This document shows, in pieces, positions 15,984 to 43,403 of a DNA stretch of 50,782 nucleotides (positions are counted from its first letter, which is position 1; the number at the start of each line of letters is the position of its first letter). The notes below the pieces were generated by a model, which searched no databases, was not told the origin of the DNA, and saw only the letters and a program-made list of their open reading frames with translations. This DNA comes from a virus (taxonomy: Duplodnaviria; Caudoviricetes), in IMG/VR virus record IMGVR_UViG_3300036761_001804, positions 1 through 50,782 of that record; one strand, written 5' to 3'. A program made the position numbers and the translations under genes.

Positions 15984-16237
15984 TGCCTTACGTGATGAAG
16001 TCTGTTCGCCCGAGGATCGAGCCGCACATGGGTTCGATGGCGATGTCCAGTGGGGAGTTGAACTACCAGATCACGCGCCTGTGTGTGGGCTACCTCGACC
16101 GCCACGGGCTCCGCTACTTCACCCTCAACGACATCATCGGCGCACTGGAGTGCGCGAAGATGGAACTCTACCGGCGTGTGGCCGCTCCATACGAAGACGA
16201 GAAGATCAAAGAGAATGGAGACGTGTACGACATATGA
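15983..16237 (+). CDS. Conserved phage protein (DUF6899-like)
   Basis: MPY...GELNY.IT...GALECAKMELYRR...PYED.KI.ENGDV pattern. Confidence 0.65.
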   Translation: MPYVMKSVRPRIEPHMGSMAMSSGELNYQITRLCVGYLDRHGLRYFTLNDIIGALECAKMELYRRVAAPYEDEKIKENGDVYDI

Positions 16238-22635: not shown

Positions 22636-24198
22636 TTACTTGCCCTCGCGTGCTGCGCGTTGGGCGGCCTCTCGCCGCAGGCGGGCCATGCGCGTACCGG
22701 CACCTTCGGGCGTGCGTCCACCCATCCCCGACACCAGGAGTTCCAGTTCATCCTGTAGGCCGCCCGAACCCTCGGGCAGGATATGCGAGCCTTCGCCGCC
22801 GCTCTTGCCCGAGTGCCAGAAGCCACCGCTCGTGGCGGCCTTGACGGCCTCGGGGCTAGAGTCGAACCCGAAGGGCTGGGAGATCGAAGTCTCCTTCGGG
22901 ATCGTGTACGAGAACGCCGTGCGCGCGGGCTTGCCCACTTGATCCGGTCCGGTGACGGTGCTGATCAGATCCTGACTACTCTGCGCGACCTTCTTCCCGG
23001 TGACTTCCTGCGGGCTCGGACCCTGCCCATTGGGGTTGATCAGGCTCGCCGGGCGCGAGGGCATCGGGACGCCCCGGGGCAGGCCCTCGTCTGGGGCACG
23101 CCCGCCAGCACCGCCCGGGTAGGTGATATGCTCGGGGAGCGGGTACGACCACTTCCAGTTCACCGCGTCCGCGATCGTGGCCGGGAGGAACAGGTCGGGG
23201 GTCGTCGCCGCATCGGTGCTCAACTGGCTCTTGGCCTTGCTCGTCAACTGCGCTTCGAGCCTGCGGGCCTCGCTCGGGGTGTGCAGACCTGACTGCTCGT
23301 TCTGGTTGAGCAAGTCCAGGGCCGTGGTGACGCCCCGAGCCCGGGCCACGTCGAAGTAGTTCTTCTCGTTCTGCGCGTAGCCCGCCTCGGCCTGCTTGCT
23401 CGCGGCGTCCTTGGTCTGCATGGACAGTGCCTCTGCGACGGCAAAGGACATCTTGCCCTGCTCGACCAACTTCATGTTCTTCGCCGCAGCGCCCTCGTCG
23501 CCGAGCGTCTTCAGATCCTCCAGCGCCTGCGGCAACCCTTCGGCTACCTTGCGTCCAATGAACTCAGGCGTCTTCGGGCCATACGTAACCTGCTCGCGCG
23601 CGTCCGCGATCTTGCGCGCGACGGCGCGTTCCTCGGGGTCGGTGATTCCGGCCAAGGGATCGTGCGCGTTGCCAGGGTTTGGAGATCCGCCAGGCGCATA
23701 GGGTGCGAGATCCCGCACGCCAGCCATCGGGCCTCCAACATCGCCAGCAGCGCCCGGAAGGTTGGTAAAGTACGGGATGTCCCCGTGCTCCGTCGTCTGC
23801 GTGCCACGGCGAATAGGCTCGGCGCTCGTCGGCCCGCGCCCCGAACTCTTGTCGATGGAATCGAGGATGCGCGTGGCTTCCTCGGGGTGTGCGGCGCTGA
23901 GCAACTTGAACGCGTCGGGGTCGATGAGCGGGCTCCCGGGCATGTCGAGCGCGCGGATCGCCTCGGGGTTCGTGGTCCCGTAAGTGGACTTGTTCTTGGC
24001 ATTCTGGGCTTCTCCCTGTGCGACATCAGCCTGGTACGCCTTCAACGCCATGGACTTCTGGCCCGCTTGCGCGGCCTCGCGCCGAATGTCTTCGGGCGTC
24101 TTCGGGGCTTCCCCTTCCACGGAAGGCCGAACCCGCTGGAGATCGGTTCCCCCGGACTTCTGGAAGTTCATCAGGTCGTCGAACGAGTAGTCAGGCAT
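22636..24198 (-). CDS. Putative internal virion protein
   Basis: Ala/Gly/Pro-rich; adjacent to the large ejection-type gene. Confidence 0.55.
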   Translation of the reverse strand: MPDYSFDDLMNFQKSGGTDLQRVRPSVEGEAPKTPEDIRREAAQAGQKSMALKAYQADVAQGEAQNAKNKSTYGTTNPEAIRALDMPGSPLIDPDAFKLLSAAHPEEATRILDSIDKSSGRGPTSAEPIRRGTQTTEHGDIPYFTNLPGAAGDVGGPMAGVRDLAPYAPGGSPNPGNAHDPLAGITDPEERAVARKIADAREQVTYGPKTPEFIGRKVAEGLPQALEDLKTLGDEGAAAKNMKLVEQGKMSFAVAEALSMQTKDAASKQAEAGYAQNEKNYFDVARARGVTTALDLLNQNEQSGLHTPSEARRLEAQLTSKAKSQLSTDAATTPDLFLPATIADAVNWKWSYPLPEHITYPGGAGGRAPDEGLPRGVPMPSRPASLINPNGQGPSPQEVTGKKVAQSSQDLISTVTGPDQVGKPARTAFSYTIPKETSISQPFGFDSSPEAVKAATSGGFWHSGKSGGEGSHILPEGSGGLQDELELLVSGMGGRTPEGAGTRMARLRREAAQRAAREGK

Positions 24199-24632
24199 CA
24201 CGCATCTCCTACGTACACGGCGATCTCTGCCTTGCGACGCAGGATCTTTCCGGCATTGGCATGGTCATTCCAGCGGCGCATCTCGTCGGGCACCGCGCAA
24301 CAGTGCCCCGCGTTCAACTTGCGCAGGAGCGTGGAGGTACTGAAGTTGCCCCATCCTACGTTGAACACGAAGGACACGAGCGCATCGAACTGCTCTTGCT
24401 TCAACGGGACGGTGACGAGCGTGTTCACGGCACGCTCAGCATCGAAGATGTCATCCATCAGGATGTCCTTCGCATCGTCCCGGGAGAGGATGGCAGTCAG
24501 TAACCCTATTTCTTTCTCCTTGACCAAGTGCCCGTAGCCGATCGTCTCGTGGCCCGTGGTGTCCCGGTACGCCTTGGCGCGAAAGCCCTCCAGGCGTTCG
24601 ATCAACTCCACGAAGCGGTCGCTCACGGTCAT
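24198..24632 (-). CDS. Endolysin, GH24 phage lysozyme
   Basis: E-x8-D-x5-T triad (LEGFRAKAYRDTTGHETIGYGH); QFDALVSFVFNVG; RR.AE. Confidence 0.95.
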   Translation of the reverse strand: MTVSDRFVELIERLEGFRAKAYRDTTGHETIGYGHLVKEKEIGLLTAILSRDDAKDILMDDIFDAERAVNTLVTVPLKQEQFDALVSFVFNVGWGNFSTSTLLRKLNAGHCCAVPDEMRRWNDHANAGKILRRKAEIAVYVGDA

Positions 24633-24635
24633 CGC

Positions 24636-24863
24636 TTACCTCCGAGCCTGCAACAGTCGCCTGTCCGGGTAGAGGAACGGGTCGTCCTGTTCCGGGGCGG
24701 CAGGGGTGGTGTCGGGACAAAGATCTTCGGGGCATCGGTCGTAGCCGAAGGCACCGACACAGGAACAGGTGAGACTGATGTCCCTTCGCGGTTCACGGGC
24801 TATCAGGGTGCAACCCGTCGTAAGTAGCGCGAAGAGCAGCCACACGATTGAGGTATGCTTCAT
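24636..24863 (-). CDS. Lipoprotein, putative o-spanin
   Basis: Lipobox-like LLTTG-C after a hydrophobic stretch; Pro/Cys-rich; in the lysis cluster. Confidence 0.55.
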   Translation of the reverse strand: MKHTSIVWLLFALLTTGCTLIAREPRRDISLTCSCVGAFGYDRCPEDLCPDTTPAAPEQDDPFLYPDRRLLQARR

Positions 24864-25053
24864 GATCCTCCCCGTCCTTGCGCGGAGTGTTCACCACGTT
24901 GGGCCTGTCAGGCTTTGCCGCCGCAGGAGCGGCAGGCTTCTCATCTTCGTGCGCGCGAGTCACCGCAGCCCGGGTGCCTTCGGTGGTCGCGTTCATGGCC
25001 TCGTCCATGGCGGCTTTGCCGCCCTGTGGACCGAAGGCATCCATCATGCCCAC
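24793..25053 (-). CDS. Hypothetical protein
   Basis: ORF in lysis cluster overlapping the lipoprotein gene; no transmembrane segment. Confidence 0.5.
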   Translation of the reverse strand: MGMMDAFGPQGGKAAMDEAMNATTEGTRAAVTRAHEDEKPAAPAAAKPDRPNVVNTPRKDGEDHEAYLNRVAALRATYDGLHPDSP

Positions 25054-25054
25054 G

Positions 25055-25381
25055 TTACGCTCCCGGGCTGGTCGCAGCCTGACTCGCGTGCGCGTTCTCG
25101 ATGATGTAGTTGAGCGCACTGGTGCCCGCTGCGATGCCCTGGGTCATAGCGAACTTGGCGAGTTCAGCGCGCACGGCGTTCATCTTGACGCTACCATCCT
25201 GGCCCACATACTTGACATCGGCGTTCTTGGTGAGTACCCCGGCCTTGGCCATGAGCACGTTGAATCCTACGGTACCGACTTCGACGGCGATGTTCGTCGC
25301 AGCCTGGACGAGGGTGGCCTGGACCGCAGGCGAGAACTTCGCGAACAGTCCACTGAAGAATGCTTTGATCTTGGCGAACAC
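25055..25381 (-). CDS. Holin-like protein (LL-H-type-like)
   Basis: AAGGAG RBS; K...V......GI......LN..IE.A pattern; lysis context. Confidence 0.5.
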   Translation of the reverse strand: MFAKIKAFFSGLFAKFSPAVQATLVQAATNIAVEVGTVGFNVLMAKAGVLTKNADVKYVGQDGSVKMNAVRAELAKFAMTQGIAAGTSALNYIIENAHASQAATSPGA

Positions 25382-25390
25382 GTTGTCTCC

Positions 25391-25681
25391 TTACTTGGTT
25401 TGGGTCGTGACCGTGATGGCCGTGGCAGCGTTGGTGGCGTCGATCAGGGCTTGCTTCTTGCCCGCGTCGCCGAGGATCTTGTACCCGAGCACGAAGCCCG
25501 CCCAGGCTACGCCTGCTTGGACTTCATCGAAGTGCCCGCTGGCGACCATGTTCGCCACGATGCACAGGCTCCCGAGGATGCTCGTGAACCCGGCGATGTG
25601 GCTCCGCTGGCCTGAGACAAATTTCTGCGCAACGATGTGGTTGAAGACGAAAGCCACGAATTTCATGATTCCTGCGTTCAC
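25391..25681 (-). CDS. Putative holin / membrane protein
   Basis: AAGGAGG RBS; about two hydrophobic segments. Confidence 0.55.
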   Translation of the reverse strand: MNAGIMKFVAFVFNHIVAQKFVSGQRSHIAGFTSILGSLCIVANMVASGHFDEVQAGVAWAGFVLGYKILGDAGKKQALIDATNAATAITVTTQTK

Positions 25682-25719
25682 ACTGACACCTCCTTAGTTG
25701 AAAACATGGTTCTATTCTA

Positions 25720-25965
25720 TCACCGATTTGCCTGGTTTGGCAAGTTTGTTCCCAGCGTCCCTTCGATCCGTTCTAGGGCTCCACCAACGCGGTCCAATTT
25801 CGTGTCAATCCGATCCAGAGCCTTGTCTTCGTAGAGATTGGCCGCTTCGACAGTGGTCAATCTATGCTCATTTGCCACCGTGCGATTCAAACTCGCTGTG
25901 GCAATCCCGGCGATAATCGTGAGCGCCACAGGAATGAGGATACGAACCCAAGTATGGGTGGTCAT
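25720..25965 (-). CDS. N-terminal TM plus coiled-coil protein (holin/XhlA- or i-spanin-like)
   Basis: ILIPVALTIIAGIATA followed by heptad-like LDRIDTKLDRV. Confidence 0.55.
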   Translation of the reverse strand: MTTHTWVRILIPVALTIIAGIATASLNRTVANEHRLTTVEAANLYEDKALDRIDTKLDRVGGALERIEGTLGTNLPNQANR

Positions 25966-26312
25966 GGCGTCACCGTAGCAGTTGGCGTCGATACAGCCAA
26001 CACCGTTGGAGTCGCGGCTGGCGTAGGAACTCCCTCTATTTGTGCCCCAAGAGAATCGAGTTGCCCGAGCAACGCAAGCGTCGCGTTCTTCTGAGCAGTG
26101 GTAAGCCGATTTGTAACATTAGGAGCGAATACACGAATCACACTTCCAGCGGCATCGACGGTAGAGCACTTAGGCGCATAGACTCGGAGATCACCATCGG
26201 TGATGGTGGCCACGAGTGTGGCATTGCAAATCACGGAAGTTTCCGTGAACACTTTCCCCCACGCAACGGTTGCGGAAAGAAAGATACCCAAAAGTACGAG
26301 ACCTTGTTTCAT
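25962..26312 (-). CDS. Secreted protein with Thr/Pro tail
   Basis: Signal peptide MKQGLVLLGIFLSATVAWG; GGAG RBS; C-terminal PTPAATPT...TPTATVTP. Confidence 0.7.
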   Translation of the reverse strand: MKQGLVLLGIFLSATVAWGKVFTETSVICNATLVATITDGDLRVYAPKCSTVDAAGSVIRVFAPNVTNRLTTAQKNATLALLGQLDSLGAQIEGVPTPAATPTVLAVSTPTATVTP

Positions 26313-26322
26313 CACGAGACTC

Positions 26323-29300
26323 CTATGGATGCGACGGAGGACCACCGGCCACGCATTCAAGCCAGCAACAATTTGCTGAAAGTGTACTGGCACTACTCAT
26401 CACTAGTTGGTAGGCTTCAAAGAAGTTTACAAACATTGGACCGGCTGCGTAGACCGTTACACCAGGGGCGCCCACCATACACCGATCTTCTCCGGGCGCC
26501 GTGGTGCCATTTATCTGGCATACAGGTGACGTGGTATCCTCTTGGAATGTACATGTGGATGAGCCAGCGTCAGCACTGTAGGTGCAAGCATTGATGTTGT
26601 TCTTGGCAAATCTCGCACGGAAGAACTTATTATTTGGTACGTCCACGCTGATCACACATTGAATATCGCTGACTGTGCGAGCATAAGGCGCGAGAGCCGA
26701 TTGTAGGCGCTGTGAAGGCGTCAGGTCGCACGCGGCACTGGAACTCATTGCTGGCGCGCAATATTCCGTTGTGTTGTTCACAGTTGATATAACGCACATG
26801 TTGGTACAGGTACCCGTGACCGCCTGCGAGCCTACTTGAAGTTGGGGCGTGGGCTTATCAGTCGGGATTGGTGAAACAGTCGGGATCGGAGTTGGGGTGA
26901 TGGTCAAAGTCGGCGTCACGCCTGTTGTTGGTGTAATGGTCGGCGTGCGCGTCGGCGTGACCGTTACTGTGGGCGTCGGGGTGCTCGTCGGGGTCAGTGT
27001 TGCCGCTGTCGCTGTTGGGGTAAGCGTGGGCGTGACTGCGATGAGTACCTTGCTCAAGAAGTCCGCGTCGCCTTGCACATCAAGGGTGTGATTTGGCGCT
27101 TGGTCTGCACCAATAACCGTAAACCCCGCGAACCTGTTGGTGACAATCGGATCAACTTGCTCGATCCCGATCGCTCCGGTTGCAGGATCTATCGAACTAT
27201 CGAGATACAATTGTACGGGAGGATTGGTATAGATTACTACTCCACCACTAATCGTCCAACCCCCAACATAGAGCATTTTGGCATTGGTGGCCGTTCCAGC
27301 GGTCATCAACGATGACCCTGCCGCGTTCGTACCTGAAACGCTCAAACCCCGCAGATCAGTGGCAATTCCCGTTTGGAGAATACCGCCATTCATCCCTACA
27401 CCAACATGCGCGCCGTACACCTTCCCAATGGTGATACTGCTCTCATAACTCGCGTTGAGATTCGCCCCAAGCAGACGCAGTGGCGCAGCAGAACTTTGCG
27501 ACCGATGAGTGGCTGTAGCGAGAAGCCCATCCGTCTCTACGCAGCGTCCAGAGCTTCCCGCATCCGAGACTTGCCCGATCGTGCCCGTTGGTCCGCAGAA
27601 TGCTATGGAGTCTAGTCCGGTGACAGTCGTGTAGGTGCCGAATCCGTTGTAGTTCGTATTACCGCGTAGACCGCCGAGTGTCAAGCCGGTCGTGCCTGCT
27701 GCTGAGGTATTGTCTGCTGCTGTAAATGACCCTCCGTACACCGAAGCATTAGCACTCCACTCGCTTCCCGGTACTCCTGTGGTATTCAGATACCTGACAG
27801 AGAGAGGCGAAAATGACGAAGTCGGGTTTATCCCGATTCCCATGATATCAAACCGGTCATTGTACTGGCTTTTGCATGCCCACCCGAGACAGATAGCGGT
27901 CTTCGTTACTTGAGGTCCTCCATTTGACATTAACGTCATTCCGGTGTTGGGCCAAATACCCCCCATGATCACAGGCAACATTGACTGCCCTTCCACGACA
28001 AGGATGGGCGTGGAAGTTGTTGTGGGTGCGCTTGTTGCTGTGGGAGTAGGCGTCGTACCCAGCACGGGCGTCGCTGTTTTAGTCGGAGAGGCTGTTTTCG
28101 TGCTCGTCAGAGTCGGCGTTGGTGATGCGGTTGCTGTGGGGGTAGGCCCGATATGCTCGTAAGCATCTACTTGTAGAAGGCAGCTTATTTCCATGAGCGT
28201 GCCCGCAGCATTGAAGGTGAAACATGTGGGCGTTGGGGCGGGCGTTGCCGTCAGTGTCAGCGTTGCCGTCGGACTGTCCGTCGGCGTGTTCGTCATGGTC
28301 GGCGTCGGGGTGTCTGTCACCGTCGGCGTGGCCGTCTTCGTCGGGGTCGCCGTCACCGTCACCGTGGGCGTTGCCGTGAGCGTCGGAGTGGCTGTGACCG
28401 TCGGGGTCGGCGTGACCGTGGGCGTCGCGGTCACGGTCGGCGTTGGCGTGACCGTCACCGTCGGCGTTGGCGTCTCGGTCTCCGTCGGGGTCGAACTGAC
28501 AGTGGCACTCGGTGTTGGGATACACGCCACTGCCGCAGCACACTTGAGTTCTAGTTGGATAACGTCCACGACTGGGGTTTCTAACTCGACATTATTGAAG
28601 ATGATGTCCAGGGAGTTGCTCTCCAACTCCACGTAGTTGTCCGTAGTACAAAACTCATCGTTCCCACAGATTGCAAGCACTGGTCCCGTGGTGGGAGTCG
28701 GAACAGGGGTTGTCGTACTCGTCGAAGTAGGCGTGGGCGTATCAGTCACGGTCGGTGTCGCCGTTACCGTGGGGGCAGGAGTCACCGTTACGGTCGGTGT
28801 CACGATACACGAGTTCACTTCCGCGCAGATGTTGCACGCTTGAATGTCCACGCACACATCAACAGTAGCAGTCGCGGTAGGCGTAGGCGTCACCGTAACA
28901 GTGGCAGTTGGTGAGAGCGTGGGAGTTCCCGTAGCTGTTATCGTGGCCGTGGGAGTGACCGTGGCCGTGGGGGTCGGCGTAGCTGTGCGCGTTGGCGTAG
29001 GCGTGCTCGTGGGCGTAGCCGTGGGGTCCGGGTAGCACACGGCGTTCCCGTTCTCTGCGATCCCGATCGCGTGGAACCCCGGGGTCGGGCACAACTTCGG
29101 CGCGAAGCACAACTCATCAGAGCAGTGATGCTTGTGGCATTGCGCCGATGAGACACCGTTCCCGCACTCCGCGCCCCAGAGGAACTCGTTCCCATCGTAG
29201 GTCGGGCAGTCCCCGAGTACGGGGGCCTGCCCGGGCGCGAAGAGCGTCTTCGGGCTCACCGGCTGCTGCGCAGCAGCAACCGTCGCGAACATGAGACACG

Positions 29301-29328
29301 CGATAATGGCAATGAACTTGCGCATCAT
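26323..29328 (-). CDS. Signal-peptide-bearing, Cys-rich, Thr/Pro-repeat tail-fibre-like protein
   Basis: MMRKFIAIIACLMFATVAAA signal; several long TPT tracts; fibre-like IG...P...L.V.G repeats; ATGA overlap with the upstream gene. Confidence 0.75.
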   Translation of the reverse strand: MMRKFIAIIACLMFATVAAAQQPVSPKTLFAPGQAPVLGDCPTYDGNEFLWGAECGNGVSSAQCHKHHCSDELCFAPKLCPTPGFHAIGIAENGNAVCYPDPTATPTSTPTPTRTATPTPTATVTPTATITATGTPTLSPTATVTVTPTPTATATVDVCVDIQACNICAEVNSCIVTPTVTVTPAPTVTATPTVTDTPTPTSTSTTTPVPTPTTGPVLAICGNDEFCTTDNYVELESNSLDIIFNNVELETPVVDVIQLELKCAAAVACIPTPSATVSSTPTETETPTPTVTVTPTPTVTATPTVTPTPTVTATPTLTATPTVTVTATPTKTATPTVTDTPTPTMTNTPTDSPTATLTLTATPAPTPTCFTFNAAGTLMEISCLLQVDAYEHIGPTPTATASPTPTLTSTKTASPTKTATPVLGTTPTPTATSAPTTTSTPILVVEGQSMLPVIMGGIWPNTGMTLMSNGGPQVTKTAICLGWACKSQYNDRFDIMGIGINPTSSFSPLSVRYLNTTGVPGSEWSANASVYGGSFTAADNTSAAGTTGLTLGGLRGNTNYNGFGTYTTVTGLDSIAFCGPTGTIGQVSDAGSSGRCVETDGLLATATHRSQSSAAPLRLLGANLNASYESSITIGKVYGAHVGVGMNGGILQTGIATDLRGLSVSGTNAAGSSLMTAGTATNAKMLYVGGWTISGGVVIYTNPPVQLYLDSSIDPATGAIGIEQVDPIVTNRFAGFTVIGADQAPNHTLDVQGDADFLSKVLIAVTPTLTPTATAATLTPTSTPTPTVTVTPTRTPTITPTTGVTPTLTITPTPIPTVSPIPTDKPTPQLQVGSQAVTGTCTNMCVISTVNNTTEYCAPAMSSSAACDLTPSQRLQSALAPYARTVSDIQCVISVDVPNNKFFRARFAKNNINACTYSADAGSSTCTFQEDTTSPVCQINGTTAPGEDRCMVGAPGVTVYAAGPMFVNFFEAYQLVMSSASTLSANCCWLECVAGGPPSHP

Positions 29329-31859
29329 GGCGTAGCCGTGGCCGTGGGCGTGCCCGTGGGCGTCGGTGTCGTGGTCCGCGTCGGACACGGATCAGTCAGC
29401 GTACACAGGTGAAAGAACGGGCACGTCGGCGTCGGGGTCGGGGTCCGTGTCGCCGTCAAGGTTGGCGTGGGCGTAGCGGTACGCGTCGGTGTAGGCGTCG
29501 CGGTTCGTGTCGGCGTAGCAGTCCTTGTGACCGTGGGCGTGGCTGCTGGCGTCGTCGTCGCGGTGAGAGTCGGCGTGGGGGTCGCCGTCGCCGTAGGGGT
29601 CGCCGTCAACGTAGGCGTGGGTGTCGTGGTTGGTGTTGGCGTCGTTGTTGCTACGCAATCTTCAGGCCCTCCGCAGACCCCGAATGTCGCGGTCGGCGTT
29701 GCGACGCCGCCTCCGGGGGTAAAGGTTTTCGTCGCCGTAGGTGTCGGGGTAAGTTCACCGCCCCCTGGGGTAAACGTGGGAGTCACCGTGGGCTCTGGCA
29801 CCGCCGCGCAGTCGAAGAAGCAATCCGCGTCAACGGTGCACGCGTTGTAGACACACAGGTCGGCGATTTCGCCGCCCTGGCAATAGCCCATCAAGCCAGG
29901 ATGGGTGCAGGTATTCACACACGGGATGTTCGTGGTGTGTGTGACGAGTTCATCGCTATCTGTGCAGAAATCCCCATCCGGGAAGCTGAAGCACGTATTC
30001 CCATGCGCCCCGCATCCACAGGCAGTCCCGCACGCAGGCCCGCAGAACTGGAGTTGCGCGAAACACGTATTCGAGTCAGGCCGACAGGCATTGCTCTGCC
30101 CGCACACGCTTCCGTTATGCACCCCGCCCAGGCAGCACGAGGCCACGCCCGGGGTCGCCGTGATCGTAGGTGTCGGGGTCGCGGTCAACGTCGGTGTTGC
30201 TGTAATCGTAGGGGTAGGTGTCTTCGTCTTGGTCGGTGTAGGGGTCAGGCAATGACAGATGCAATCCGGCGGCCCGGTGCCGGTGGCGTCGCAAGAACAG
30301 TCCGTGCCCACACACTGGCCGAAGGCTGCGCAGAAGGCAGCCCCGTCGATAAACCCGCATGCCTCGGGCGTCCTGGTCGGTGTAGCAGTCACAGTCGGCG
30401 TGTCCGTGGGCGCCGTGCTCGTCGCTGTGGGCGTGGGCGTCCTCGTAGGTGTCGGTGTAAGCGTTGGCGTAGCCGTAACCGTAGGCGTTGGTGTACTTGC
30501 CGCGTCCAGGGATTCCATGGTGAACGCGATATCACCCATCGTGGCGGCGAGCGCGGCCGAGGGCACCAGCATGATGCTGCAACACGTACTTCCAGGGATA
30601 CTCGCGGCGACAGCGGAGAACAGCATGCTTTTGTTGCCCGCCAGAATCGTTCCGAGAAGAGTGTCCGTTGTCCCGGCTGTGATCGCCGCTACACAGGTTT
30701 GTGTACTCGTGGGCGCTGTGGTCGCGCATCGCGTGGACACAGCAATAGTCTTGGCCCCGTCTGGCGCCGTGGTAATGGCAATTCCACCGTACAGAGAACT
30801 CTGGACCTTCGGCGGAGTCAAGAACATCACGTTCTCAGTCTGCGCGGTCCCACATGTCGTATCATTCGCCGTGGGCATCCCGCAGAACCGTGTTCCCGTG
30901 CCTGAAGCGGTTGCCCCAAAGGCCCAGATATTTGCCCCAGTTTGAAGTGTTCCTGAACTGTCCACGGTGCACGTATAGGCCATTTGCACCGTCGTGTTAC
31001 TTGCGCTTCGAATATATTTCGCGCTGAAACACTGGCCCACGGGGATGCTCAACGTCCCCATGGTGGCCACGCAACTATTGTTTCCAGTCGTCGCGGAACA
31101 CTGATCCGTATCCGTGTAAACGAGATCTTGGCAGTTCTTCGTGAGATCAGCGCTCAACGCGGTAGTGCTGATGTGGGATTGGAATTTGCGGGTACCCGCG
31201 CTATCCCCTGCGAAGGCCATGCCCATTGCGCATTGCGCGATGTCGCGCGGAGCAATGAAATGCATCGAGTTCGTCTCAGTCGCGCCGAAACGCGGCCCAT
31301 GGAACCCGTCCGCGTTGTCGTTGCCGTTTCCGAGCGCTTGAAATTGCATGAGGCCATCCGCGCCGCTCGCGGTGGACGTGCATTGCACCCCCGTCGTGAG
31401 GACGGTGGACGAAGGGGAACCCGCCTCCGCGATCCCGATTTTCATGCACGAGTGCGCCGCGTGGCTCGTGAGCGTCACCACACTTTCAAGGACGGTTTGC
31501 GTGGTTCCGGTGATAGTCCCTACCGTGACCGCTGTCATCCCCGCGTCTCGCGAGGAACAACTCTCACTCGCGGCAAGCGCCGACGTGTCATAGTAGAGAC
31601 TGATAGTCCACGTCTTCGCGGAACCGGCGGCCGCTGCCGCCTTCACGATCACATCGCAAGTGGCAAGCGTATCTTCCACGAGCCACCACGACGTTGCCGC
31701 GGTTGTCGAGCACCCCGTCGCAGCGCAGAACACCGAGGCACTAGTCGATGTTCCACCCTGGGCGTAGAAATTATCCCCGCCGTCGATGGTATTCCCAAAC
31801 GCGAGTCCAGGCACCAGGACCGCGAGGCACAGCAGCAGTATGCGAAGCGAGCGGATTAT
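29325..31859 (-). CDS. Signal-peptide-bearing, Cys-rich, Thr/Pro-repeat protein (probable ATA start)
   Basis: In-frame (M)IRSLRILLLCLAVLVPGLAFG upstream of the tracked GTG; beta-rich Cys-containing N-terminal domains; TPT tracts; Cys-rich modules. Confidence 0.75.
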   Translation of the reverse strand: MIRSLRILLLCLAVLVPGLAFGNTIDGGDNFYAQGGTSTSASVFCAATGCSTTAATSWWLVEDTLATCDVIVKAAAAAGSAKTWTISLYYDTSALAASESCSSRDAGMTAVTVGTITGTTQTVLESVVTLTSHAAHSCMKIGIAEAGSPSSTVLTTGVQCTSTASGADGLMQFQALGNGNDNADGFHGPRFGATETNSMHFIAPRDIAQCAMGMAFAGDSAGTRKFQSHISTTALSADLTKNCQDLVYTDTDQCSATTGNNSCVATMGTLSIPVGQCFSAKYIRSASNTTVQMAYTCTVDSSGTLQTGANIWAFGATASGTGTRFCGMPTANDTTCGTAQTENVMFLTPPKVQSSLYGGIAITTAPDGAKTIAVSTRCATTAPTSTQTCVAAITAGTTDTLLGTILAGNKSMLFSAVAASIPGSTCCSIMLVPSAALAATMGDIAFTMESLDAASTPTPTVTATPTLTPTPTRTPTPTATSTAPTDTPTVTATPTRTPEACGFIDGAAFCAAFGQCVGTDCSCDATGTGPPDCICHCLTPTPTKTKTPTPTITATPTLTATPTPTITATPGVASCCLGGVHNGSVCGQSNACRPDSNTCFAQLQFCGPACGTACGCGAHGNTCFSFPDGDFCTDSDELVTHTTNIPCVNTCTHPGLMGYCQGGEIADLCVYNACTVDADCFFDCAAVPEPTVTPTFTPGGGELTPTPTATKTFTPGGGVATPTATFGVCGGPEDCVATTTPTPTTTPTPTLTATPTATATPTPTLTATTTPAATPTVTRTATPTRTATPTPTRTATPTPTLTATRTPTPTPTCPFFHLCTLTDPCPTRTTTPTPTGTPTATATP

Positions 31860-32944
31860 ATGCCCTGTGAGTAACGTGGAGGCGGAGCCTGATCGGCTCG
31901 GCGTGCGGCCAGCGTGGCCTGCATGCGCGTATCTTCGGCTTGTCCTGCGGAAATGCTAGGGCGCCGACCCTGTGTCGCGATAGCGTTCTGCGTACCCAAC
32001 TGCTGCGCATTCACGCCCGCGAAGCCCAGGGCGTTGTTCTTGTCGAACTCGCGTTGCTTCTCCGCGCGGTCCAGATTCCCCTGGCTCGTACCCACGTCGA
32101 ACTCCCGGGCCTGCTCTTTGATCTTCTGCTGCGCCAGTTGCCACTCCACGGCCAGGCTCCGCGACATCTGGTTGTACTTGGCGTTGTCAATCATGCTGTT
32201 GTTGAACTGCTCGTCCAACTGCGCCTGGAGTTCGTTGGCCTTGGCCTTGGCATCGGCGAAGCCGAGTTGTGCCGTCTGGACCAACTGCGCGAAGCCCAGG
32301 TCTACGTGCGCCTGGTCACTATTGCGCGCCGCTAGCGCCTGCCCGAACTGCGTGTTCATCGCCGTCTCGGCCTGGTTGTACGAGTTGATCTGCGAGTTCA
32401 TGGATTCCGAGGCACGCTGGTACTGGTCGCCTTCTTCCTTGCGGATCTGGGCAGCCCCGGCGAAGCCCTCGCCTGCCACGGCCTTCATCTTGTCCAGCGC
32501 CGCTTGCTTCGCCGCGCCCTGGAACCCACCCGCGTAGCCCGCGCGCGAGGTATTCTCCTGCGCTTGCCGCCGCGCCTCGTCGGCCGTCGAACTCGTCTGC
32601 GAGTCTGCTAGGCCCATCAGGTTCGCGAACGCGCTCGTGTGCGTGGGATCGTTGAACCCGGACGCCGCGCGCCGCACGTCGCCGCGCGTCACGTCGATGT
32701 TCCCTTGCTGATGCTTCAGGCTCGCATCCATCTCCGGGGAACTGAAGTCGCTCCGGTTCGGGGCGCCGATCACAGGCCGCGTGCCGGGCGTCGGATAATC
32801 GCTTGGGTTCGGTCCCCGCACCTTCGGCGGCTTGATCGGCGCGTTCGCGGGGCCACTATTGAAAATGTCGAACATACCGCCGCCGCCGCCCGCCGTGCCG
32901 CCGATGAAATTGCTCCGAACTGAACCGCCAGTATTGAAAGCCAC
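31856..32944 (-). CDS. Putative internal virion (ejection/pilot-like) protein
   Basis: Gly-rich N-terminus; Gln/Ala/Asn-rich helical body with QREFD repeats. Confidence 0.55.
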   Translation of the reverse strand: MAFNTGGSVRSNFIGGTAGGGGGMFDIFNSGPANAPIKPPKVRGPNPSDYPTPGTRPVIGAPNRSDFSSPEMDASLKHQQGNIDVTRGDVRRAASGFNDPTHTSAFANLMGLADSQTSSTADEARRQAQENTSRAGYAGGFQGAAKQAALDKMKAVAGEGFAGAAQIRKEEGDQYQRASESMNSQINSYNQAETAMNTQFGQALAARNSDQAHVDLGFAQLVQTAQLGFADAKAKANELQAQLDEQFNNSMIDNAKYNQMSRSLAVEWQLAQQKIKEQAREFDVGTSQGNLDRAEKQREFDKNNALGFAGVNAQQLGTQNAIATQGRRPSISAGQAEDTRMQATLAARRADQAPPPRYSQGI

Positions 32945-33384: not shown

Positions 33385-34076
33385 TACTTAGACCTCTTAT
33401 TCGCGGGCAGGCGCTTCCCGAGCACGTCCCACGTAGCAAACCACGAGTTGATTTGCACAGGGTCGTTGCTTGCATTTTCCAAGCGCACGGTGAACGAGCG
33501 ACCCTTGACCGCGATCAGGGCACGCATCAACTGTGCGGTCTGCCGTACCCCGATGCGCCACGTCTCCTGCTCGCGCTCCGTCTCGCCGACGCTGATGCGC
33601 CACACCGCCTCGGGGCCTTGCGTTGGAGCGTTCTTCAACGAGAACTGGATCTCGCGAAAGCGCTTCAACACGTTGAGCGCGTAACCGCCCCGGCCCTCGG
33701 TGTCCGCCAGGTTGTACGGGACGGGGCCGAACTTGATCATCCGGTAGATCGGGGCGAACGTGTTTGGCTCCCACTCGTCGCGAAAGCGCGTATAGTCCAG
33801 GGCGTAGATTCTATTCTGAACCGCCACGGTGATCAGGTCGTTCCCGATCTGATCTTCGATCTGTGCCGACAGACTAGTCGGGATGTCCCAGATGCTCCAC
33901 GCCCCGCGCTGGTTGCCCAGGGCCTCGTCGCCCGGGAGCGGGCTCAAGTCCATGTTGTAGATGAAGTTGCCCCAGCGATCCTTGAGGCACCCAGGGTCGG
34001 TACACTTCAACCGCCCCGGGATAGTGCCCACGTCTTCCTCGTAGAAGTCTTCACAGGGAATGAATGCCACACTCAT
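33384..34076 (-). CDS. C-terminal part of tail nozzle/stabilisation protein
   Basis: FIYN...GAWSIWD, IYALD, KRFREI and KGR.F.VRL resemble the distal half of P22 gp10/T7 gp12-type nozzles. Confidence 0.55.
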   Translation of the reverse strand: MSVAFIPCEDFYEEDVGTIPGRLKCTDPGCLKDRWGNFIYNMDLSPLPGDEALGNQRGAWSIWDIPTSLSAQIEDQIGNDLITVAVQNRIYALDYTRFRDEWEPNTFAPIYRMIKFGPVPYNLADTEGRGGYALNVLKRFREIQFSLKNAPTQGPEAVWRISVGETEREQETWRIGVRQTAQLMRALIAVKGRSFTVRLENASNDPVQINSWFATWDVLGKRLPANKRSK

Positions 34077-35965
34077 GGGCTACAATCCTCGGCTTCCTGC
34101 GTGCCCGTCAAGTCCGTGGTGTTCATCACCAGCGTCACGTCCTGCACCGTGAACGCATCTGACGTGAACCGCGTGCGCACGATTACATCCACGACGAAGC
34201 ACACGACGTTGGCGCCCTCGAAACGTCCACCAGCGCCACCATCGGCGGCGATGTCCGCCAGGGACGCATCGGGCAACCAAATGTCCTTCTCGCGCGCAGC
34301 CGGATCGTGGAAGATGTTCGCGTAGCGGCAGTACCCGCGCAAGTCGCGCCCGAAGGCAGATCGGGGCTTCGTACTCGCGGTATGGTCAATCGCGTCATTC
34401 TGGCCCGGGTCTAGCCGGGGCATGCGTAGGATGATCGACGCGTCGTGCCCAGAGGCGCTGTGCCTGTGCGAGCCCAGGAAGGAGAACTCGAAATACCCGT
34501 TCCCAAGGAACGGCTGGGCATACGGGGTCAAGAGCAGCCCCGGGCTCAGGTTGTCCACCCAGGAAGTCTCGAAGTCCACGAACGGCGGCGCGGCCGGGAT
34601 CGGGTCAGCAACGCTCCGAATCCCGGCGGCCCCGTTGGCGTAGCCAATCGAGTCCATCACGATCGTCGGGAATAGCGGCGGGCTGGCGCCGACAATCGCG
34701 GCCGTGGTGAACCGGAACGAACGCACGCGTAGACCAATCCTGCACTGTGACGGGAGATGGTCCAATTTGATCCTGAACCCATAGGGAAGTGGATTGGAAA
34801 ACGTGCCCACGATCGTGGCACTATCCACCGGCCCATAGTTGAACCCATCCGTCACAGCCGAGGGATCAGTCGTGATCAACGCCGGCACGTTCGCGCCCGC
34901 GAACGACGCGGCCTTGGCGAAGTCTGTTCCCGTGAACGTCACGATCTTCCTGAACCCGCGCTCCTGTTTCGCGGGATCTTGCGGCTCCGGGTTCCGGGGA
35001 TCTGGGATGTACTCGCCAGTCTTCGGGTCCACGTATGTCTCGATCGGCTGCCTCGGCAGTACCTGCGGATCGTTGATCGGCAACTTCTGTTTCGGCTCCC
35101 CAGTCTTGTCCGGGTCAAAGCACGGCAACTCCGTATGCGCGAGCAAGTCTTCAAAGTACGCCAGTTGATCCGGCGTCATCGAGTCCTTGAACGCCTGGAG
35201 CGCAACAGGGTCGCACAGGTCCACGAGAGGCAGAACAGGAGGCTCGCTCGGAGGAGTCGGCCCGCCAGCGTCGGGAGGGATCGTCGGCCAGTCGAACGGC
35301 GGCGTATCACAGACGCTCGGGGCGTAGTTGGTACAATCGAGTGGTGGCGTAAGACACGCCTCGTCGGTCGCGCACGGTCCCGGGTCGATGCACTCGATCG
35401 TAGGATCGGCGTGACAGTCCCCGGGCGTTTCGATTCGATCATGGCAGGCGCCGAAAAGGTGGACAGCGATGAAGTCGTTGTGGACAGTGTACCCCGAGGC
35501 CACGGCAATCGTGATCCACACCTTGTCGATGCCCTGGAGCGCCACCGCCAGGCGCATGTCGAAGAACTTCGCGCGCCCGCTCCGGGTGCCCCGGAACGGG
35601 TCGTTGAGCAAGATCCTGTTCTGGAGCGTCCAGGTACTGTCCAGGCTGCTATGGGTCCAGAACTCCAGAGCGCTCGTGTTCAGGACGCTCTCGTCGAACA
35701 CCGCCGAGATCTTGGGCAGCACGCCCCAGAACCGGGAGCACCGGCGCTCGAACGTGAACAGCAGGCCCTCGTGGGTGAAGGACGATCCCGGTGGCACCGT
35801 GGTGATCAGATCCTGGTCGTAGAACACGTTCTCGTTCGCGGGCAGCGCGGCGGGCGTCCCTGCGGGATCAAGACTATCGTAGGCGCTCGTGCTCTGGATC
35901 GAGTAATTAGTATCCGCGTCCAGGCCAATCTGACGGATACGCCCGAGGAAGACAGAATGTGCCAT
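34073..35965 (-). CDS. Virion-associated protein with central Cys/Pro-rich region
   Basis: 630-aa ORF coupled by TGATG and ATGA overlaps; beta-rich ends. Confidence 0.65.
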   Translation of the reverse strand: MAHSVFLGRIRQIGLDADTNYSIQSTSAYDSLDPAGTPAALPANENVFYDQDLITTVPPGSSFTHEGLLFTFERRCSRFWGVLPKISAVFDESVLNTSALEFWTHSSLDSTWTLQNRILLNDPFRGTRSGRAKFFDMRLAVALQGIDKVWITIAVASGYTVHNDFIAVHLFGACHDRIETPGDCHADPTIECIDPGPCATDEACLTPPLDCTNYAPSVCDTPPFDWPTIPPDAGGPTPPSEPPVLPLVDLCDPVALQAFKDSMTPDQLAYFEDLLAHTELPCFDPDKTGEPKQKLPINDPQVLPRQPIETYVDPKTGEYIPDPRNPEPQDPAKQERGFRKIVTFTGTDFAKAASFAGANVPALITTDPSAVTDGFNYGPVDSATIVGTFSNPLPYGFRIKLDHLPSQCRIGLRVRSFRFTTAAIVGASPPLFPTIVMDSIGYANGAAGIRSVADPIPAAPPFVDFETSWVDNLSPGLLLTPYAQPFLGNGYFEFSFLGSHRHSASGHDASIILRMPRLDPGQNDAIDHTASTKPRSAFGRDLRGYCRYANIFHDPAAREKDIWLPDASLADIAADGGAGGRFEGANVVCFVVDVIVRTRFTSDAFTVQDVTLVMNTTDLTGTQEAEDCSP

Positions 35966-42962: not shown

Positions 42963-43403
42963 TTATGCACCAATCACCACGTCCACGTAGGCGATGGCAT
43001 CCGTGCTCGTGTTCCGAGCGCGGATCTTGGTGAACCGTCCCAGGGTGCCCGCGAGGGAACCTGCGGCGGCGTAAGCGCGGTCTGAGCCCAGGAAGAAGGG
43101 GATGTCCCCCGCTGCCAGGGAGCAAGTGCTGATGTTATCCGCCACGGCCGTGCCGCTGGCGGTGAACTCCAGGTCCACCAGTTGATCACTGTGCAGGATC
43201 AGGAGCCGGAACGACGTAGGGTTGGCCCCGCCTGCGGCGGAATCCCAGATCGTGACGATGGACCCATCCAGTGGAAGAGCGACCCGGTACTCCAACGGGT
43301 CGCTCACCAGATCCAGCGTAGGCGGCACGAACGGCTGCGCGAACTCGCGTAGGCGAGAGCCGGTCGTGAGAGCCACGGCGTAGTGGAATTGGACTGTCGG
43401 CAT
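42963..43403 (-). CDS. Putative structural protein (MPTVQFHY...)
   Basis: TGATG coupling at 43403; beta-rich. Confidence 0.65.
   Translation of the reverse strand: MPTVQFHYAVALTTGSRLREFAQPFVPPTLDLVSDPLEYRVALPLDGSIVTIWDSAAGGANPTSFRLLILHSDQLVDLEFTASGTAVADNISTCSLAAGDIPFFLGSDRAYAAAGSLAGTLGRFTKIRARNTSTDAIAYVDVVIGA

What the first reader, a model, noticed from the sequence alone, without database searches (positions are those of the whole stretch)
25962..31859. Tail-fibre slot filled by Sec-exported, Cys-rich, mucin-like (Thr/Pro) proteins: possible extracytoplasmic maturation of virion appendages
Seen: three consecutive late genes (29325-31859, 26323-29328, 25962-26312) lie where podovirus tail fibres usually sit. 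All begin with classic signal peptides (basic n-region, hydrophobic core, small-residue cleavage site). The two large ones carry dozens of Cys and long (TPTPTxT)n tracts; the small one has a short T/P tail. Two more secreted genes sit between portal and scaffold. No signal-less fibre gene is evident. Known: tailed-phage structural proteins normally fold in the cytoplasm, whereas disulfide formation (Dsb) and general O-glycosylation of Thr/Pro-rich linkers occur after export in many bacteria. Inference: the phage exports receptor-binding or decoration proteins to be oxidised and glycosylated by host enzymes, then attaches them at or after lysis, giving a glycan-brush virion. Alternatively they are late-expressed cell-surface or decoy proteins.
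Basis: partly seen in the sequence, partly recalled or inferred. Interest (0 to 1): 0.88.

Follow-up and report, generated by a model that had tools for sequence, protein, structure and literature searches.

The report
Phage tail operon encodes secreted proteins
An uncultured short-tailed phage carries, at the end of its tail-gene operon, a conserved but fast-changing set of genes for proteins built to be exported out of the cytoplasm, which is odd because phage particles are assembled inside it.

Summary
Three co-oriented, overlapping late genes sit between the tail genes and the lysis cassette: A 29325-31856, B 26323-29328 and C 25962-26312. Their products carry leaders that look like signal peptides. 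A has 50 Cys and 7 Thr/Pro tracts; B has 34 Cys and 9.

Two corrections:
- A has no ATG, GTG or TTG before its leader. It has ATC where a relative has ATG.
- A signal-less receptor-binding candidate does exist. It is a 630-aa protein (34073-35965) with a conserved N-terminal half and a hypervariable C-terminal half.

The leaders are not chance. A's N-terminal domain is three tandem jelly-roll modules (AF2 pLDDT 88.6). It defines a rare family of 26 representatives among 1.84 billion proteins, and 21 of the 26 have such a leader. The largest contig is at most 53.2 kb for 25 of 26 clusters. The exception lies in a prophage-like region of a Binatia MAG. All five phages of this lineage keep 2-4 such genes in the same slot, with shuffled domains.

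Export is well supported. Attachment to the virion is untested. I favour non-virion exported binding proteins (about 0.45) over appendages added after export (about 0.3).

The parts
29325..31856 (-). Gene A, 843 codons counted from the ATC. Order of parts: signal-peptide-like leader, three tandem jelly-roll modules, Thr/Pro linkers alternating with small Cys-rich segments, a C-terminal 3-Cys motif and a short Thr/Pro tail.
   Evidence: start codon; 50 Cys, 7 tracts; family; model.
31794..31856 (-). Leader of A, ending ...PGLAFG before NTIDGG. It is in frame but starts at ATC. The upstream gene's TAA stop overlaps this codon.
   Evidence: Homologues start with ATG or GTG at the same place.
30501..31793 (-). 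N-terminal domain of A (stored as P0002, 431 aa). It has three roughly 140-aa all-beta jelly-roll modules, at residues 5-141, 147-280 and 286-431, each with conserved Cys.
   Evidence: AF2 pLDDT 88.6 and pTM 0.89. Per-module VIA Z of 8-9.5 to TNF/C1q-type and viral or phage jelly rolls. Foldseek results.
29385..29423 (-). C-terminal 3-Cys motif of A (T-C-x-F-x3-C-x5-7-C), followed by a short Thr/Pro tail.
   Evidence: Present in 11 of the 29 A-type proteins inspected.
26323..29328 (-). Gene B, 1001 aa. Order of parts: signal peptide, conserved 8-Cys N-terminal domain, Thr/Pro linkers with small Cys segments, an orphan central domain (residues 440-775), a Thr/Pro linker and a Cys-rich C-terminal domain.
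   Evidence: N-domain alignment; no homologue found for the central domain; only the N and C ends are conserved in G001.
29035..29268 (-). N-terminal 8-Cys domain of B, directly after the predicted cleavage site. It is conserved in G001 (53%), G003 (38%) and P0010 (43%).
25962..26312 (-). Gene C, 116 aa. Signal peptide, a small 2-Cys domain and a Thr/Pro tail. Its stop overlaps the start of the next gene, a TM protein. No homologue was found in the relatives.
43942..44253 (-). 103-aa protein with a signal peptide and a 4-Cys domain, between portal and scaffold.
   Evidence: One copy in G001.
43403..43945 (-). 180-aa paralogue: signal peptide, 4-Cys domain and a Thr/Pro tail of about 110 aa. 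Its stop overlaps the start of a 146-aa gene (42963-43403) as TGATG.
34073..35965 (-). Signal-less 630-aa tail protein with a conserved N-terminal half and a hypervariable C-terminal half. It is the candidate conventional receptor-binding protein.
   Evidence: In L029 it is split into 315-aa and 196-aa ORFs.
31856..32944 (-). 362-aa Cys-free, Gln/Ala-rich protein directly upstream of A. It is conserved in all five lineage members.
   Evidence: The positional counterpart in MW202554 has a borderline Peptidase_S74 hit.
24198..25965 (-). Lysis cassette directly downstream: TM proteins, a lipobox protein at 24636-24863 and a PF00959 endolysin at 24198-24632.

Best explanation
A, B and C, together with the two small genes between portal and scaffold, are phage-specific proteins made late from the tail-lysis operon. 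They are sent through the Sec pathway out of the cytoplasm.

Outside the cytoplasm their leaders are removed. Their many Cys then form disulfides that stabilise small globular modules: jelly rolls and Cys-knot-like domains. These modules are strung on extended Thr/Pro linkers.

I think they most likely act as free or envelope-associated binding proteins, not as parts built into the particle. They accumulate in the periplasm of a probably diderm host. At lysis they are released together with the progeny, or remain on the envelope. There they bind host-surface or matrix structures, for example by masking receptors on debris or by changing how cells and particles stick.

Their rapid domain shuffling would reflect the same host-surface arms race that drives receptor-binding proteins. 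The signal-less 630-aa protein upstream would be the particle's own receptor-binding protein.

SHOWN
- The gene anatomy and operon coupling.
- Conservation of the leaders.
- The jelly-roll fold (predicted).
- Confinement of the family to phage-sized contigs and one prophage-like region.
- Conservation of the slot in 5 of 5 relatives.

INFERRED
- Actual export and cleavage.
- Disulfide formation.
- A diderm host.
- Absence from virions.
- The binding role.
For: EXPORT
- 21 of 26 family representatives have a leader by my heuristic. The 5 misses are mostly truncated or odd starts.
- In 18 of 29 proteins the conserved DG motif of the domain starts at residue 21-31, right after the leader.
- Leaders persist at 23-49% identity.
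- Cys is 5.9% in A and 3.4% in B, against 0-2.2% in the late proteins that have no signal-peptide-like, lipobox or N-terminal TM leader.
- In genome G002, the Binatia MAG that holds family member P0012, 56 further loci match only the Thr/Pro-linker part of the profile.
- Four of six such ORFs checked have signal-peptide or lipobox N-termini. The other two are cut by the locus edge.
- G002 has 5 DsbA-family matches.

NOT NEEDED AS THE FIBRE
- The 630-aa protein has the conserved-N, variable-C pattern.
- The tail set is conserved and carries no such leader: adaptor PF24175, then proteins of 449, 630, 230, 144 and 362 aa.

PRECEDENT
- XepA of PBSX is encoded in the late operon, in the lytic cassette beside the holin genes. 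It is exported beyond the membrane and is absent from particles (PMC6834076, Introduction passages read).
- XepA appears among the fold matches: Z 9.0, but rmsd 25.6 over 177 residues.

TEMPERATE CONTEXT
- In the Binatia contig an A-type gene sits with three other leader-bearing genes. A prohead protease lies on one side and DUF1376, HTH and integrase on the other. No tail gene was recognised among the ORFs between them.

EXPRESSION
- The start codon of A in this window is ATC. That fits a low-copy or dispensable product better than an essential fibre.
Against: - The cassette is kept in the same slot in 5 of 5 lineage members, with 2-4 genes each. That is unlike sporadic accessory genes.
- Its architecture looks like that of receptor-binding proteins. 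Lineage-conserved terminal modules are joined to variable, shuffled knobs. The conserved modules are B's N-terminal domain and A's C-terminal motif (11 of 29). P0010 and P0028 show the shuffling.
- Individual modules resemble phage receptor-binding domains at Z of about 8.6-8.8: the cyanophage A-1(L) short-fibre domain and the lactococcal phage 1358 RBP.
- In another phage (L025) an A-type gene lies among large unannotated late genes rather than at an operon end.
- The family was not found as an ordinary cellular gene. It appeared in 1 of 301 genomes of the phylum sampled, and that one was the prophage copy. The first genome-contig scan found none.
- A clear benefit of releasing free binding proteins that could compete with progeny for receptors is not obvious.
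- No experiment or proteome bears on any of this.
Confidence: 0.45

Rival explanations
1. Virion appendages matured outside the cytoplasm. A and B are receptor-binding or decoration fibres that are exported, oxidised and perhaps O-glycosylated. They dock onto finished, fibre-poor particles through lineage-conserved anchor modules: B's N-terminal 8-Cys domain and A's C-terminal 3-Cys motif. Docking could occur in the interval after holin lesions open the inner membrane and before the outer membrane fails, or just after lysis.
For: - The slot at the end of the tail operon is conserved in 5 of 5 relatives, with overlapping stops and starts.
- The anchor-plus-variable-knob architecture and the domain shuffling fit a fibre.
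- The jelly-roll modules resemble phage receptor-binding domains.
- The family is confined to phage-sized contigs and is absent from cellular genomes apart from one prophage-like region.
- In the distant relative MW202554, a protein with a true Phage Tail Collar domain (PF07484, E 1.7e-23) lies next to the tail genes and also has a hydrophobic leader. So does a Laminin_G_3 lectin.
- Tail fibres can join particles in vitro, and canonical holin lesions are large. Both points are recalled, not checked here.
Against: - No tailed phage is known to build particle parts from Sec-exported proteins. Full-text searches found none, but they cover open-access text only.
- A signal-less candidate for the receptor-binding protein exists.
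- No Pfam, PHROG or NCBIfam tail-fibre family matches A, B or C. B's single phrog_15511 hit falls in a Thr/Pro tract.
- Flexible monomeric Thr/Pro tethers differ from the rigid trimeric shafts of known fibres.
- A starts with ATC here.
- Docking was not tested.
Confidence: 0.3
2. The hydrophobic N-termini are not cleaved export signals. They are uncleaved membrane anchors or SAR-like tethers, or simply buried helices. The proteins stay on the cytoplasmic side, or are held at the membrane until the holin fires, and they join particles in the ordinary way.
For: - No SignalP was run; I used only my own heuristic.
- Some leaders are atypical. G003's B-like leader is long. The MW202554 collar protein lacks a basic n-region.
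- SAR endolysins set a precedent for signal-like tethers in phage late genes. They are mentioned in PMC6834076 and PMC8951688 (passages read).
Against: - Most leaders are about 20 residues long, with a basic start and small residues at -3 and -1. They sit directly before the first conserved domain residue.
- 50 and 34 Cys in small modules make more sense in an oxidising compartment.
- The same linker style goes with signal-peptide or lipobox proteins in a candidate host-type genome.
Confidence: 0.1
3. Host-derived cargo (morons) of no use to the phage's own cycle. Surface-protein genes were captured from the host and are carried along, mattering only in lysogens.
For: - The Binatia element places the cluster next to DUF1376, HTH and integrase.
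- The Thr/Pro-linker style is shared with many host ORFs.
Against: - No integrase was found among the ORFs of this window that were scanned against Pfam.
- The slot is conserved in 5 of 5 lineage members.
- The simple consensus scan found no separate promoter or terminator signal above chance, and the genes overlap their neighbours.
- The jelly-roll domain was not found in cellular genomes outside the one prophage-like region. It was also absent from 50,697 deposited phage records.
Confidence: 0.05

Closest known systems
XepA of Bacillus subtilis PBSX (late-operon 'exported protein')
   Same: - It is encoded in the late operon as part of the lytic cassette, beside the holin genes.
[quoted passage not shown]
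- It is not present in mature particles (PMC6834076, Introduction passages).
- It appears among the fold matches of A's modules (Z 9.0).
   Different: - XepA is a 279-aa pentameric dumbbell of a monoderm host's defective prophage.
- It has no Thr/Pro linkers and no Cys-rich modules.
- The fold match is poor overall (rmsd 25.6 over 177 residues).
- There is no sequence relation.
Podovirus tailspikes and tail fibres with a conserved particle-binding end and a variable receptor-binding end (for example P22 gp9; recalled, not tested)
   Same: - Position in the tail operon.
- Size.
- Conserved terminal module plus variable, shuffled distal modules.
- Beta-sandwich knobs.
   Different: - Known fibres and spikes lack signal peptides, fold in the cytoplasm and are rigid homotrimers.
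- Here there are leaders, dozens of Cys and flexible Thr/Pro tethers.
- No tail-fibre family matches.
- In this genome that description fits the 630-aa signal-less protein better.
Phage-encoded envelope proteins such as T5 Llp and lambda Bor/Lom (recalled), and signal-peptide-bearing sortase substrates of huge phages
   Same: These are phage genes whose products carry signal peptides and act in or on the host envelope rather than in the particle. For the huge phages see preprint 10.64898/2026.10.24.761521 (abstract and section 8 passages).
   Different: - Those are small lipoproteins or outer-membrane proteins, or cell-wall-sorted proteins of Gram-positive hosts, and they are usually sporadic.
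- Here there is a multi-gene, hypervariable cassette of proteins up to 1001 aa, fixed in the tail operon of a virulent-looking podovirus lineage.
- It has no sortase-type or lipobox signal.
TNF/C1q-type jelly-roll domains, including engineered single-chain trimers
   Same: - Each of A's three modules aligns to TNF-family or C1q domains at Z of about 8-9.3 with rmsd 3-3.8 over 110-125 residues.
- Foldseek ranks single-chain TNF and C1q trimers at the top.
   Different: - Whole-chain TM-scores are only about 0.2. VIA aligns one module at a time.
- The three modules are therefore not shown to pack as a TNF-like trimer.
- Z of 8-9.5 is only modestly above the background the tool quotes.
Pro/Thr linker boxes of secreted bacterial multi-domain proteins (for example cellulases; recalled)
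   Same: - Extended low-complexity Thr/Pro spacers lie between globular modules of exported proteins.
- They are encoded here by imperfect 12-42-nt tandem repeats.
- They are abundant in the Binatia genome G002.
   Different: - Here they are in a phage tail operon.
- Several proteins end in a free Thr/Pro tail rather than in a domain.
- Glycosylation is unknown.

Membership tests
Sec-type (signal peptidase I) signal peptide proteins | Basic n-region, uncharged hydrophobic core of about 8-18 residues, and small residues at -3 and -1. | tested here: met
   My own heuristic only. B, C and both small proteins pass. A passes when read from the ATC (output for its homologues; leader shown). 21 of 26 family representatives pass. 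SignalP was not available.
Sec-type (signal peptidase I) signal peptide proteins | A canonical start codon ahead of the leader. | tested here: not met
   This applies to A only: ATC at 31856, where G001 has ATG. B and C start with ATG.
Sec-type (signal peptidase I) signal peptide proteins | Actual translocation and cleavage. | not testable with these tools
   It needs N-terminal mass spectrometry or reporter fusions.
Phage tail fibre / receptor-binding protein | Encoded within the tail module and co-transcribed with tail genes. | tested here: met
Phage tail fibre / receptor-binding protein | Sequence membership of a described tail-fibre or tailspike family. | tested here: not met
   No Pfam or NCBIfam hit for A, B or C. 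The only PHROG hit (phrog_15511, unknown function) lies in a Thr/Pro tract of B. There was no hit in 50,697 phage records.
Phage tail fibre / receptor-binding protein | A conserved particle-binding end with a variable receptor-binding remainder. | tested here: inconclusive
   The pattern is present: B's N-terminal domain and A's C-terminal motif in 11 of 29. What the conserved ends bind is unknown.
Phage tail fibre / receptor-binding protein | Presence in the particle. | not testable with these tools
   The phage is uncultured and no proteome was available.
TNF/C1q-like jelly-roll fold | A beta-sandwich jelly roll of about 130 residues. | tested here: met
   AF2 model with pLDDT 88.6. Per-module Z of 8-9.5. 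This is fold level only.
TNF/C1q-like jelly-roll fold | Three-fold bell-shaped packing of the three jelly rolls. | tested here: inconclusive
   Whole-chain TM is about 0.2 to single-chain trimers. VIA aligns single modules only. The model coordinates could not be inspected.
Moron / lysogenic-conversion cargo | Sporadic distribution, its own promoter and terminator, and a temperate phage. | tested here: not met
   The cassette is present in 5 of 5 relatives. The genes overlap their neighbours and the simple consensus scan gave no signal above shuffles. No integrase was found among the ORFs scanned. One temperate context does exist.
O-glycosylated mucin-like linkers | Glycans on the Thr of the linkers. 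| not testable with these tools
   Only composition is seen. Wzy_C-family genes exist in G002, but they do not distinguish O-oligosaccharyltransferases from O-antigen ligases.

The most novel reading that the evidence does not exclude
A lineage of tailed phages routes part of its host-recognition apparatus through the host's secretory pathway. Jelly-roll knobs on Thr/Pro tethers are folded and disulfide-locked, and possibly glycosylated, in the periplasm. They are then clipped onto cytoplasm-built particles through dedicated anchor modules once the holin has joined the two compartments. This would be a two-compartment assembly line, without precedent among tailed phages.
Probability: 0.3. Interest if true: 0.95.

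Novelty: new variant of a known kind. Interest (0 to 1): 0.74.

Why it matters
Tailed-phage particles are taken to be built wholly in the cytoplasm. Phage proteins with signal peptides are usually few. One survey of five lytic phages found 0-2 per genome (PMC5723332, Table 3 passage). They are mostly lysis or exclusion factors.

Here at least five leader-bearing, Cys-rich modular proteins sit inside the structural operon. The main cassette is fixed in position yet hypervariable across a whole lineage. It belongs to a family seen almost only on phage-sized contigs.

There are two possibilities, and each would be new:
- The phage invests heavily in exported binding proteins that act beside the particle. 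That would be an unrecognised layer of phage-host surface interaction.
- Particles are completed outside the cytoplasm. That would change the textbook picture.

The question is directly testable by virion or viral-fraction proteomics.

The jelly-roll family and the two anchor modules are also new, well-defined probes for finding such phages.

Tried and rejected
TOOLS THAT WERE CLOSED
- Earlier findings were not open.
Its fold is therefore unknown.
- The Atlas could not read B's central domain.

SEARCHES THAT FOUND NOTHING
- Word-indexed homologue searches found nothing for B residues 440-775 or B residues 1-105. Known relatives such as P0010 exist, so this index is insensitive here.
- PDB sequence searches gave nothing usable. 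This covers the single proteins A, B, 449 aa and 647 aa and the profiles of the 630-, 449- and 362-aa families.
- The Atlas structure neighbours of the 630-aa protein were all below TM 0.35, on a poor model.
- Neither BLASTP nor hhalign shows that B's C-terminal domain is related to A's modules. I dropped that idea.
- A narrower alignment (A3) found one viral contig. It found nothing in genome contigs or metagenome contigs.
- PHROGs gave no names for the neighbours of the A-type gene in L025. Their structural roles are guesses from size only.
- The Binatia genome has no match to this phage's capsid or 449-aa tail protein. That element is a different phage type.

NOT DONE
- Complex prediction was not used. 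There was no specific partner with good prior odds.

LITERATURE
- Searches found no report of signal-peptide-bearing tail fibres. These cover open-access text only.

Full report
WHAT THE WINDOW IS

The window is a whole IMG/VR virus record of 50,782 bp, estimated 98% complete.

The plus-strand left third carries replication and nucleotide genes: family-A DNA polymerase, AAA_25 helicase-like, amidoligase, GATase, dGTP_diPhyd_N and DUF4406. No integrase was found among the ORFs scanned.

The minus strand from about 50.2 kb down to 19.3 kb is one long late block. In order it holds:
- large terminase at 47496-49346;
- a 763-aa portal-sized protein;
- two small leader-bearing proteins;
- a scaffold-like acidic protein;
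- the major head protein at 40574-41863 (phrog_14242);
- an SU10-type adaptor at 37728-38492 (PF24175);
- conserved tail proteins of 449, 630/647, 230, 144 and 362 aa;
- the three genes of the finding;
- a lysis cassette of TM proteins, a lipobox protein and a PF00959 endolysin;
- two large Cys-free proteins of 521 and 1116 aa.

The closest deposited phage is MW202554.1, an uncultured podovirus with 34% capsid identity.

CHECKING THE OBSERVATION

The composition claims hold:

| Protein | Length | Cys | Thr/Pro tracts |
|---|---|---|---|
| B | 1001 aa | 34 | 9 |
| C | 116 aa | 2 | a short tail |

Cys content separates the leader-bearing genes from the rest. A is 5.9%, B 3.4%, the two small proteins 2.2-3.9% and the lipobox protein 6.7%. 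The 25 late proteins that have no signal-peptide-like, lipobox or N-terminal TM leader are 0-2.2%.

The Thr/Pro tracts are encoded by imperfect tandem repeats of 12-42 nt.

The genes are packed as one operon:
- the A stop and B start overlap as ATGA;
- AGGAG precedes C;
- the C stop overlaps the next start as ATGA;
- the simple consensus scan gave no more terminator-like or promoter-like sites than shuffles did.

There are two corrections.

First, A has no canonical start. Aligned with a relative, the window has TAATC where the relative has TAATG. The homologous start is therefore ATC at 31856, overlapping the stop of the upstream 362-aa gene.

Second, a signal-less candidate for a conventional receptor-binding protein exists (see the section on it below).

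THE LEADERS ARE REAL FEATURES, NOT CHANCE

My heuristic alone is weak. It fires 99 times over all frames. Conservation is the stronger argument.

A's N-terminal 431 residues were searched with HMMER against 1.84 billion representatives. There were 26 hits at E <= 1e-3, four of them at E <= 1e-30.

Of the 26, 21 have a basic-hydrophobic-small leader. The five misses are P0006, P0008, P0015, P0023 and P0026. Most of them start oddly or look truncated.

I then inspected 29 A-type proteins: the 26 plus the window, G001 and G003 copies. In 18 of them the conserved DG motif that opens the domain lies at residue 21-31, directly after the leader. The rest have another module between leader and domain, or a variant motif.

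The leaders persist although domain identity falls to 23-30%.

WHAT THE PROTEINS LOOK LIKE

With the 28-row alignment, AlphaFold2 gives a confident all-beta model of A's N-terminal domain (pLDDT 88.6, pTM 0.89). The alignment consensus shows three repeats of a module of about 140 residues with conserved Cys.

Foldseek puts engineered single-chain TNF/C1q trimers and triple-jelly-roll viral proteins on top. Whole-chain TM-scores are only about 0.2, however. BFVD gives C1q-domain and other jelly-roll proteins of uncultured phages.

VIA-align matches each module separately at Z 8-9.5. The matches include 4-1BB ligand, APRIL and birnavirus VP2. They also include the cyanophage A-1(L) short-tail-fibre domain (Z 8.8), the lactococcal phage 1358 receptor-binding protein (Z 8.6) and XepA (Z 9.0, though with rmsd 25.6).

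So A has three tandem jelly rolls. A TNF-like three-fold packing is not shown. The Z values are only modestly above the tool's stated background.

Behind the knob come Thr/Pro linkers, small Cys-rich segments and, near the end, a 3-Cys motif. That motif is present in 11 of 29 A-type proteins.

B has:
- a conserved 8-Cys domain right after its leader, 38-53% identical in G001, G003 and P0010;
- an orphan central domain;
- a Cys-rich C-terminal domain weakly conserved in G001.

Domains are shuffled. P0010 joins a B-type N-terminal domain to an A-type knob. P0028 joins an A-type knob to the middle domain of G001's B.

No Pfam, NCBIfam or meaningful PHROG family matches A, B or C. Nothing matches in 50,697 deposited phage records.

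WHERE THE FAMILY LIVES

For the 26 clusters, the longest contig is 36-53.2 kb for 8 of them and under 30 kb for 17. One, P0012, lies on an 82-kb contig labelled by its source as a Candidatus Binatia MAG. P0016 lies on a 1.8-kb contig of a Phycisphaerae MAG.

Five genomes of the window's own lineage could be read: the window, G001, G003, L026 and L029. All five have the same order: adaptor, the 449-, 630-, 230- and 144-aa proteins, then the 362-aa protein, then leader-bearing Cys- and Thr/Pro-rich genes. In G001 the part of this order upstream of the 144-aa gene is cut off by the contig end.

| Genome | Leader-bearing genes in the slot |
|---|---|
| G001 | 2 |
| Window | 3 |
| L029 | 3 |
| G003 | 4 |
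| L026 | at least 2 before its contig ends |

Where the contig continues, a TM protein and the lysis genes follow.

A different phage (L025) has an A-type gene among large unannotated late genes, plus two more leader-bearing Thr/Pro-rich genes nearby.

In the Binatia contig, the A-type gene sits with three other leader-bearing genes. A Peptidase_S78 prohead protease lies on one side. DUF1376, HTH and an integrase lie on the other, followed by ordinary bacterial genes. That genome has no match to this phage's capsid or 449-aa protein.

Outside that region, the jelly-roll domain was not found in 300 other genomes of the same phylum (1 of 301 in total). Nor was it found in the first scan of 185,579 species genomes.

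The family is therefore phage-borne and moves between unrelated phages.

A CLUE TO THE HOST STYLE

In the Binatia genome the family profile gives one full-length match. It also gives 56 matches confined to the Thr/Pro-linker part of the model.

I checked six such ORFs. Four have signal-peptide or lipobox N-termini and 10-22 Cys. The other two are cut by the locus edge.

The genome has five DsbA-family and five Wzy_C-family matches. The latter cannot tell O-oligosaccharyltransferases from O-antigen ligases.

So Thr/Pro linkers are the local grammar of exported proteins in at least one host-type genome.

Whether this window's host is of that group is unknown. A diderm host is inferred only from the lipobox protein beside a small single-domain endolysin and from the short leaders.

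THE SIGNAL-LESS RECEPTOR-BINDING CANDIDATE

The 630-aa protein (34073-35965) has five library homologues plus the G003 copy. Against them:
- residues 1-330 are 29-62% identical;
- residues 331-630 are 11-22% identical in five of the six, and 30-35% in P0041.

In L029 only the conserved half is present, as a 315-aa ORF followed by a separate 196-aa ORF. This conserved-anchor, variable-tip pattern is what tailspikes and fibres show. By contrast the 449-aa protein is 52-56% identical throughout.

In the distant relative MW202554, the counterpart of the 362-aa protein has a borderline Peptidase_S74 hit. That domain is found at fibre and spike ends.

WEIGHING THE READINGS

Export is the best-supported step; I put it at about 0.85. 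What happens next is open.

For particle appendages:
- the fixed slot in 5 of 5 genomes;
- the anchor-plus-variable-knob architecture;
- the receptor-binding-like modules;
- the phage-only distribution;
- in MW202554, a true Tail Collar protein next to the tail genes, and a lectin, both with hydrophobic leaders.

Against particle appendages:
- I know of no precedent, and three full-text searches found none;
- the tail set looks complete without them;
- flexible monomeric tethers are unlike fibre shafts;
- A starts with ATC;
- there is the precedent of XepA, a late-operon protein of the lytic cassette that is exported and absent from particles (PMC6834076, passages read);
- a recent preprint argues that huge phages display signal-peptide proteins on host surfaces (10.64898/2026.10.24.761521, passages read).

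My odds are:
- non-virion exported binding proteins, about 0.45;
- appendages added after export, about 0.3;
- uncleaved anchors or ordinary cytoplasmic assembly, about 0.1;
- useless cargo, about 0.05;
- the rest unassigned.

WHAT IS RECALLED RATHER THAN TESTED
- P22 tailspike architecture.
- T5 Llp and lambda Bor/Lom.
- The sizes of holin lesions.
- In vitro fibre attachment.
- Cellulase Pro/Thr boxes.
- Mycobacteriophage virion glycosylation. For this, one search shows only that the phrase occurs in listed papers.

VERDICT

The finding is a real, conserved and unusual feature, with two factual corrections. Its export half is supported. Its virion half is possible but untested.

Noticed in passing
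window 31854-31860: Gene A has ATC where its homologue in G001 has ATG (TAATC against TAATG, overlapping the upstream stop). The cause could be near-cognate initiation by coupling, low expression, a sequencing error or early decay.
   Followed up: partly
window 16673-17077 and 15829-16680; also 1174-3484: The early region encodes a dGTP_diPhyd_N (MazZ-like) protein, a DUF4406 protein, an amidoligase and a GATase. This hints at nucleotide-pool or DNA-base modification.
   Followed up: no
window 10235-10621 (+): A 128-aa ORF fits a gap between early plus-strand genes and has a textbook signal-peptide-like start, ending ...LLGTVQA before ANAASV. No Pfam hit.
   Followed up: no
window 4262-4344 (+): A single tRNA-Ser with anticodon AGA.
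   Followed up: no
window 24636-24863 (-): A 75-aa lipobox protein (…LLTTGC…) with 5 Cys lies just upstream of the endolysin and overlaps the preceding ORF. It looks like an outer-membrane spanin subunit. No clear copy was seen in G001's ORF list.
   Followed up: partly
window 42963-43403 (-): A 146-aa gene starts at the stop of the Thr/Pro-tailed small secreted protein (TGATG). The same coupling is conserved in G001. Function unknown.
   Followed up: no
window 35300-35480 (residues about 170-250 of the 630-aa protein): The signal-less 630-aa tail protein carries a conserved run of Cys in a Pro/Asp-rich segment. This is unusual for a protein that folds in the cytoplasm.
   Followed up: no
L029 2747-4284: In this relative the 630-aa gene is replaced by a 315-aa ORF (the conserved half) plus a separate 196-aa ORF.
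   Followed up: no
L013 (MW202554.1) 13349-14374, 25674-26465, 27039-29579, 18416-18910: A distant relative has hydrophobic leaders on a Phage Tail Collar protein, a Laminin_G_3 lectin and two further late proteins. A neighbouring pectate-lyase-like protein has none.
   Followed up: partly
G002 (Binatia MAG), many contigs: At least 56 loci match only the Thr/Pro-linker part of the family profile. Such linkers are a genome-wide habit there.
   Followed up: partly
L015 4110-7437: Two further leader-bearing, Cys-rich genes (389 and 725 aa) lie beside the A-type gene in the Binatia element. P0012 and the 725-aa protein share a short motif just before a Thr/Pro stretch.
   Followed up: no
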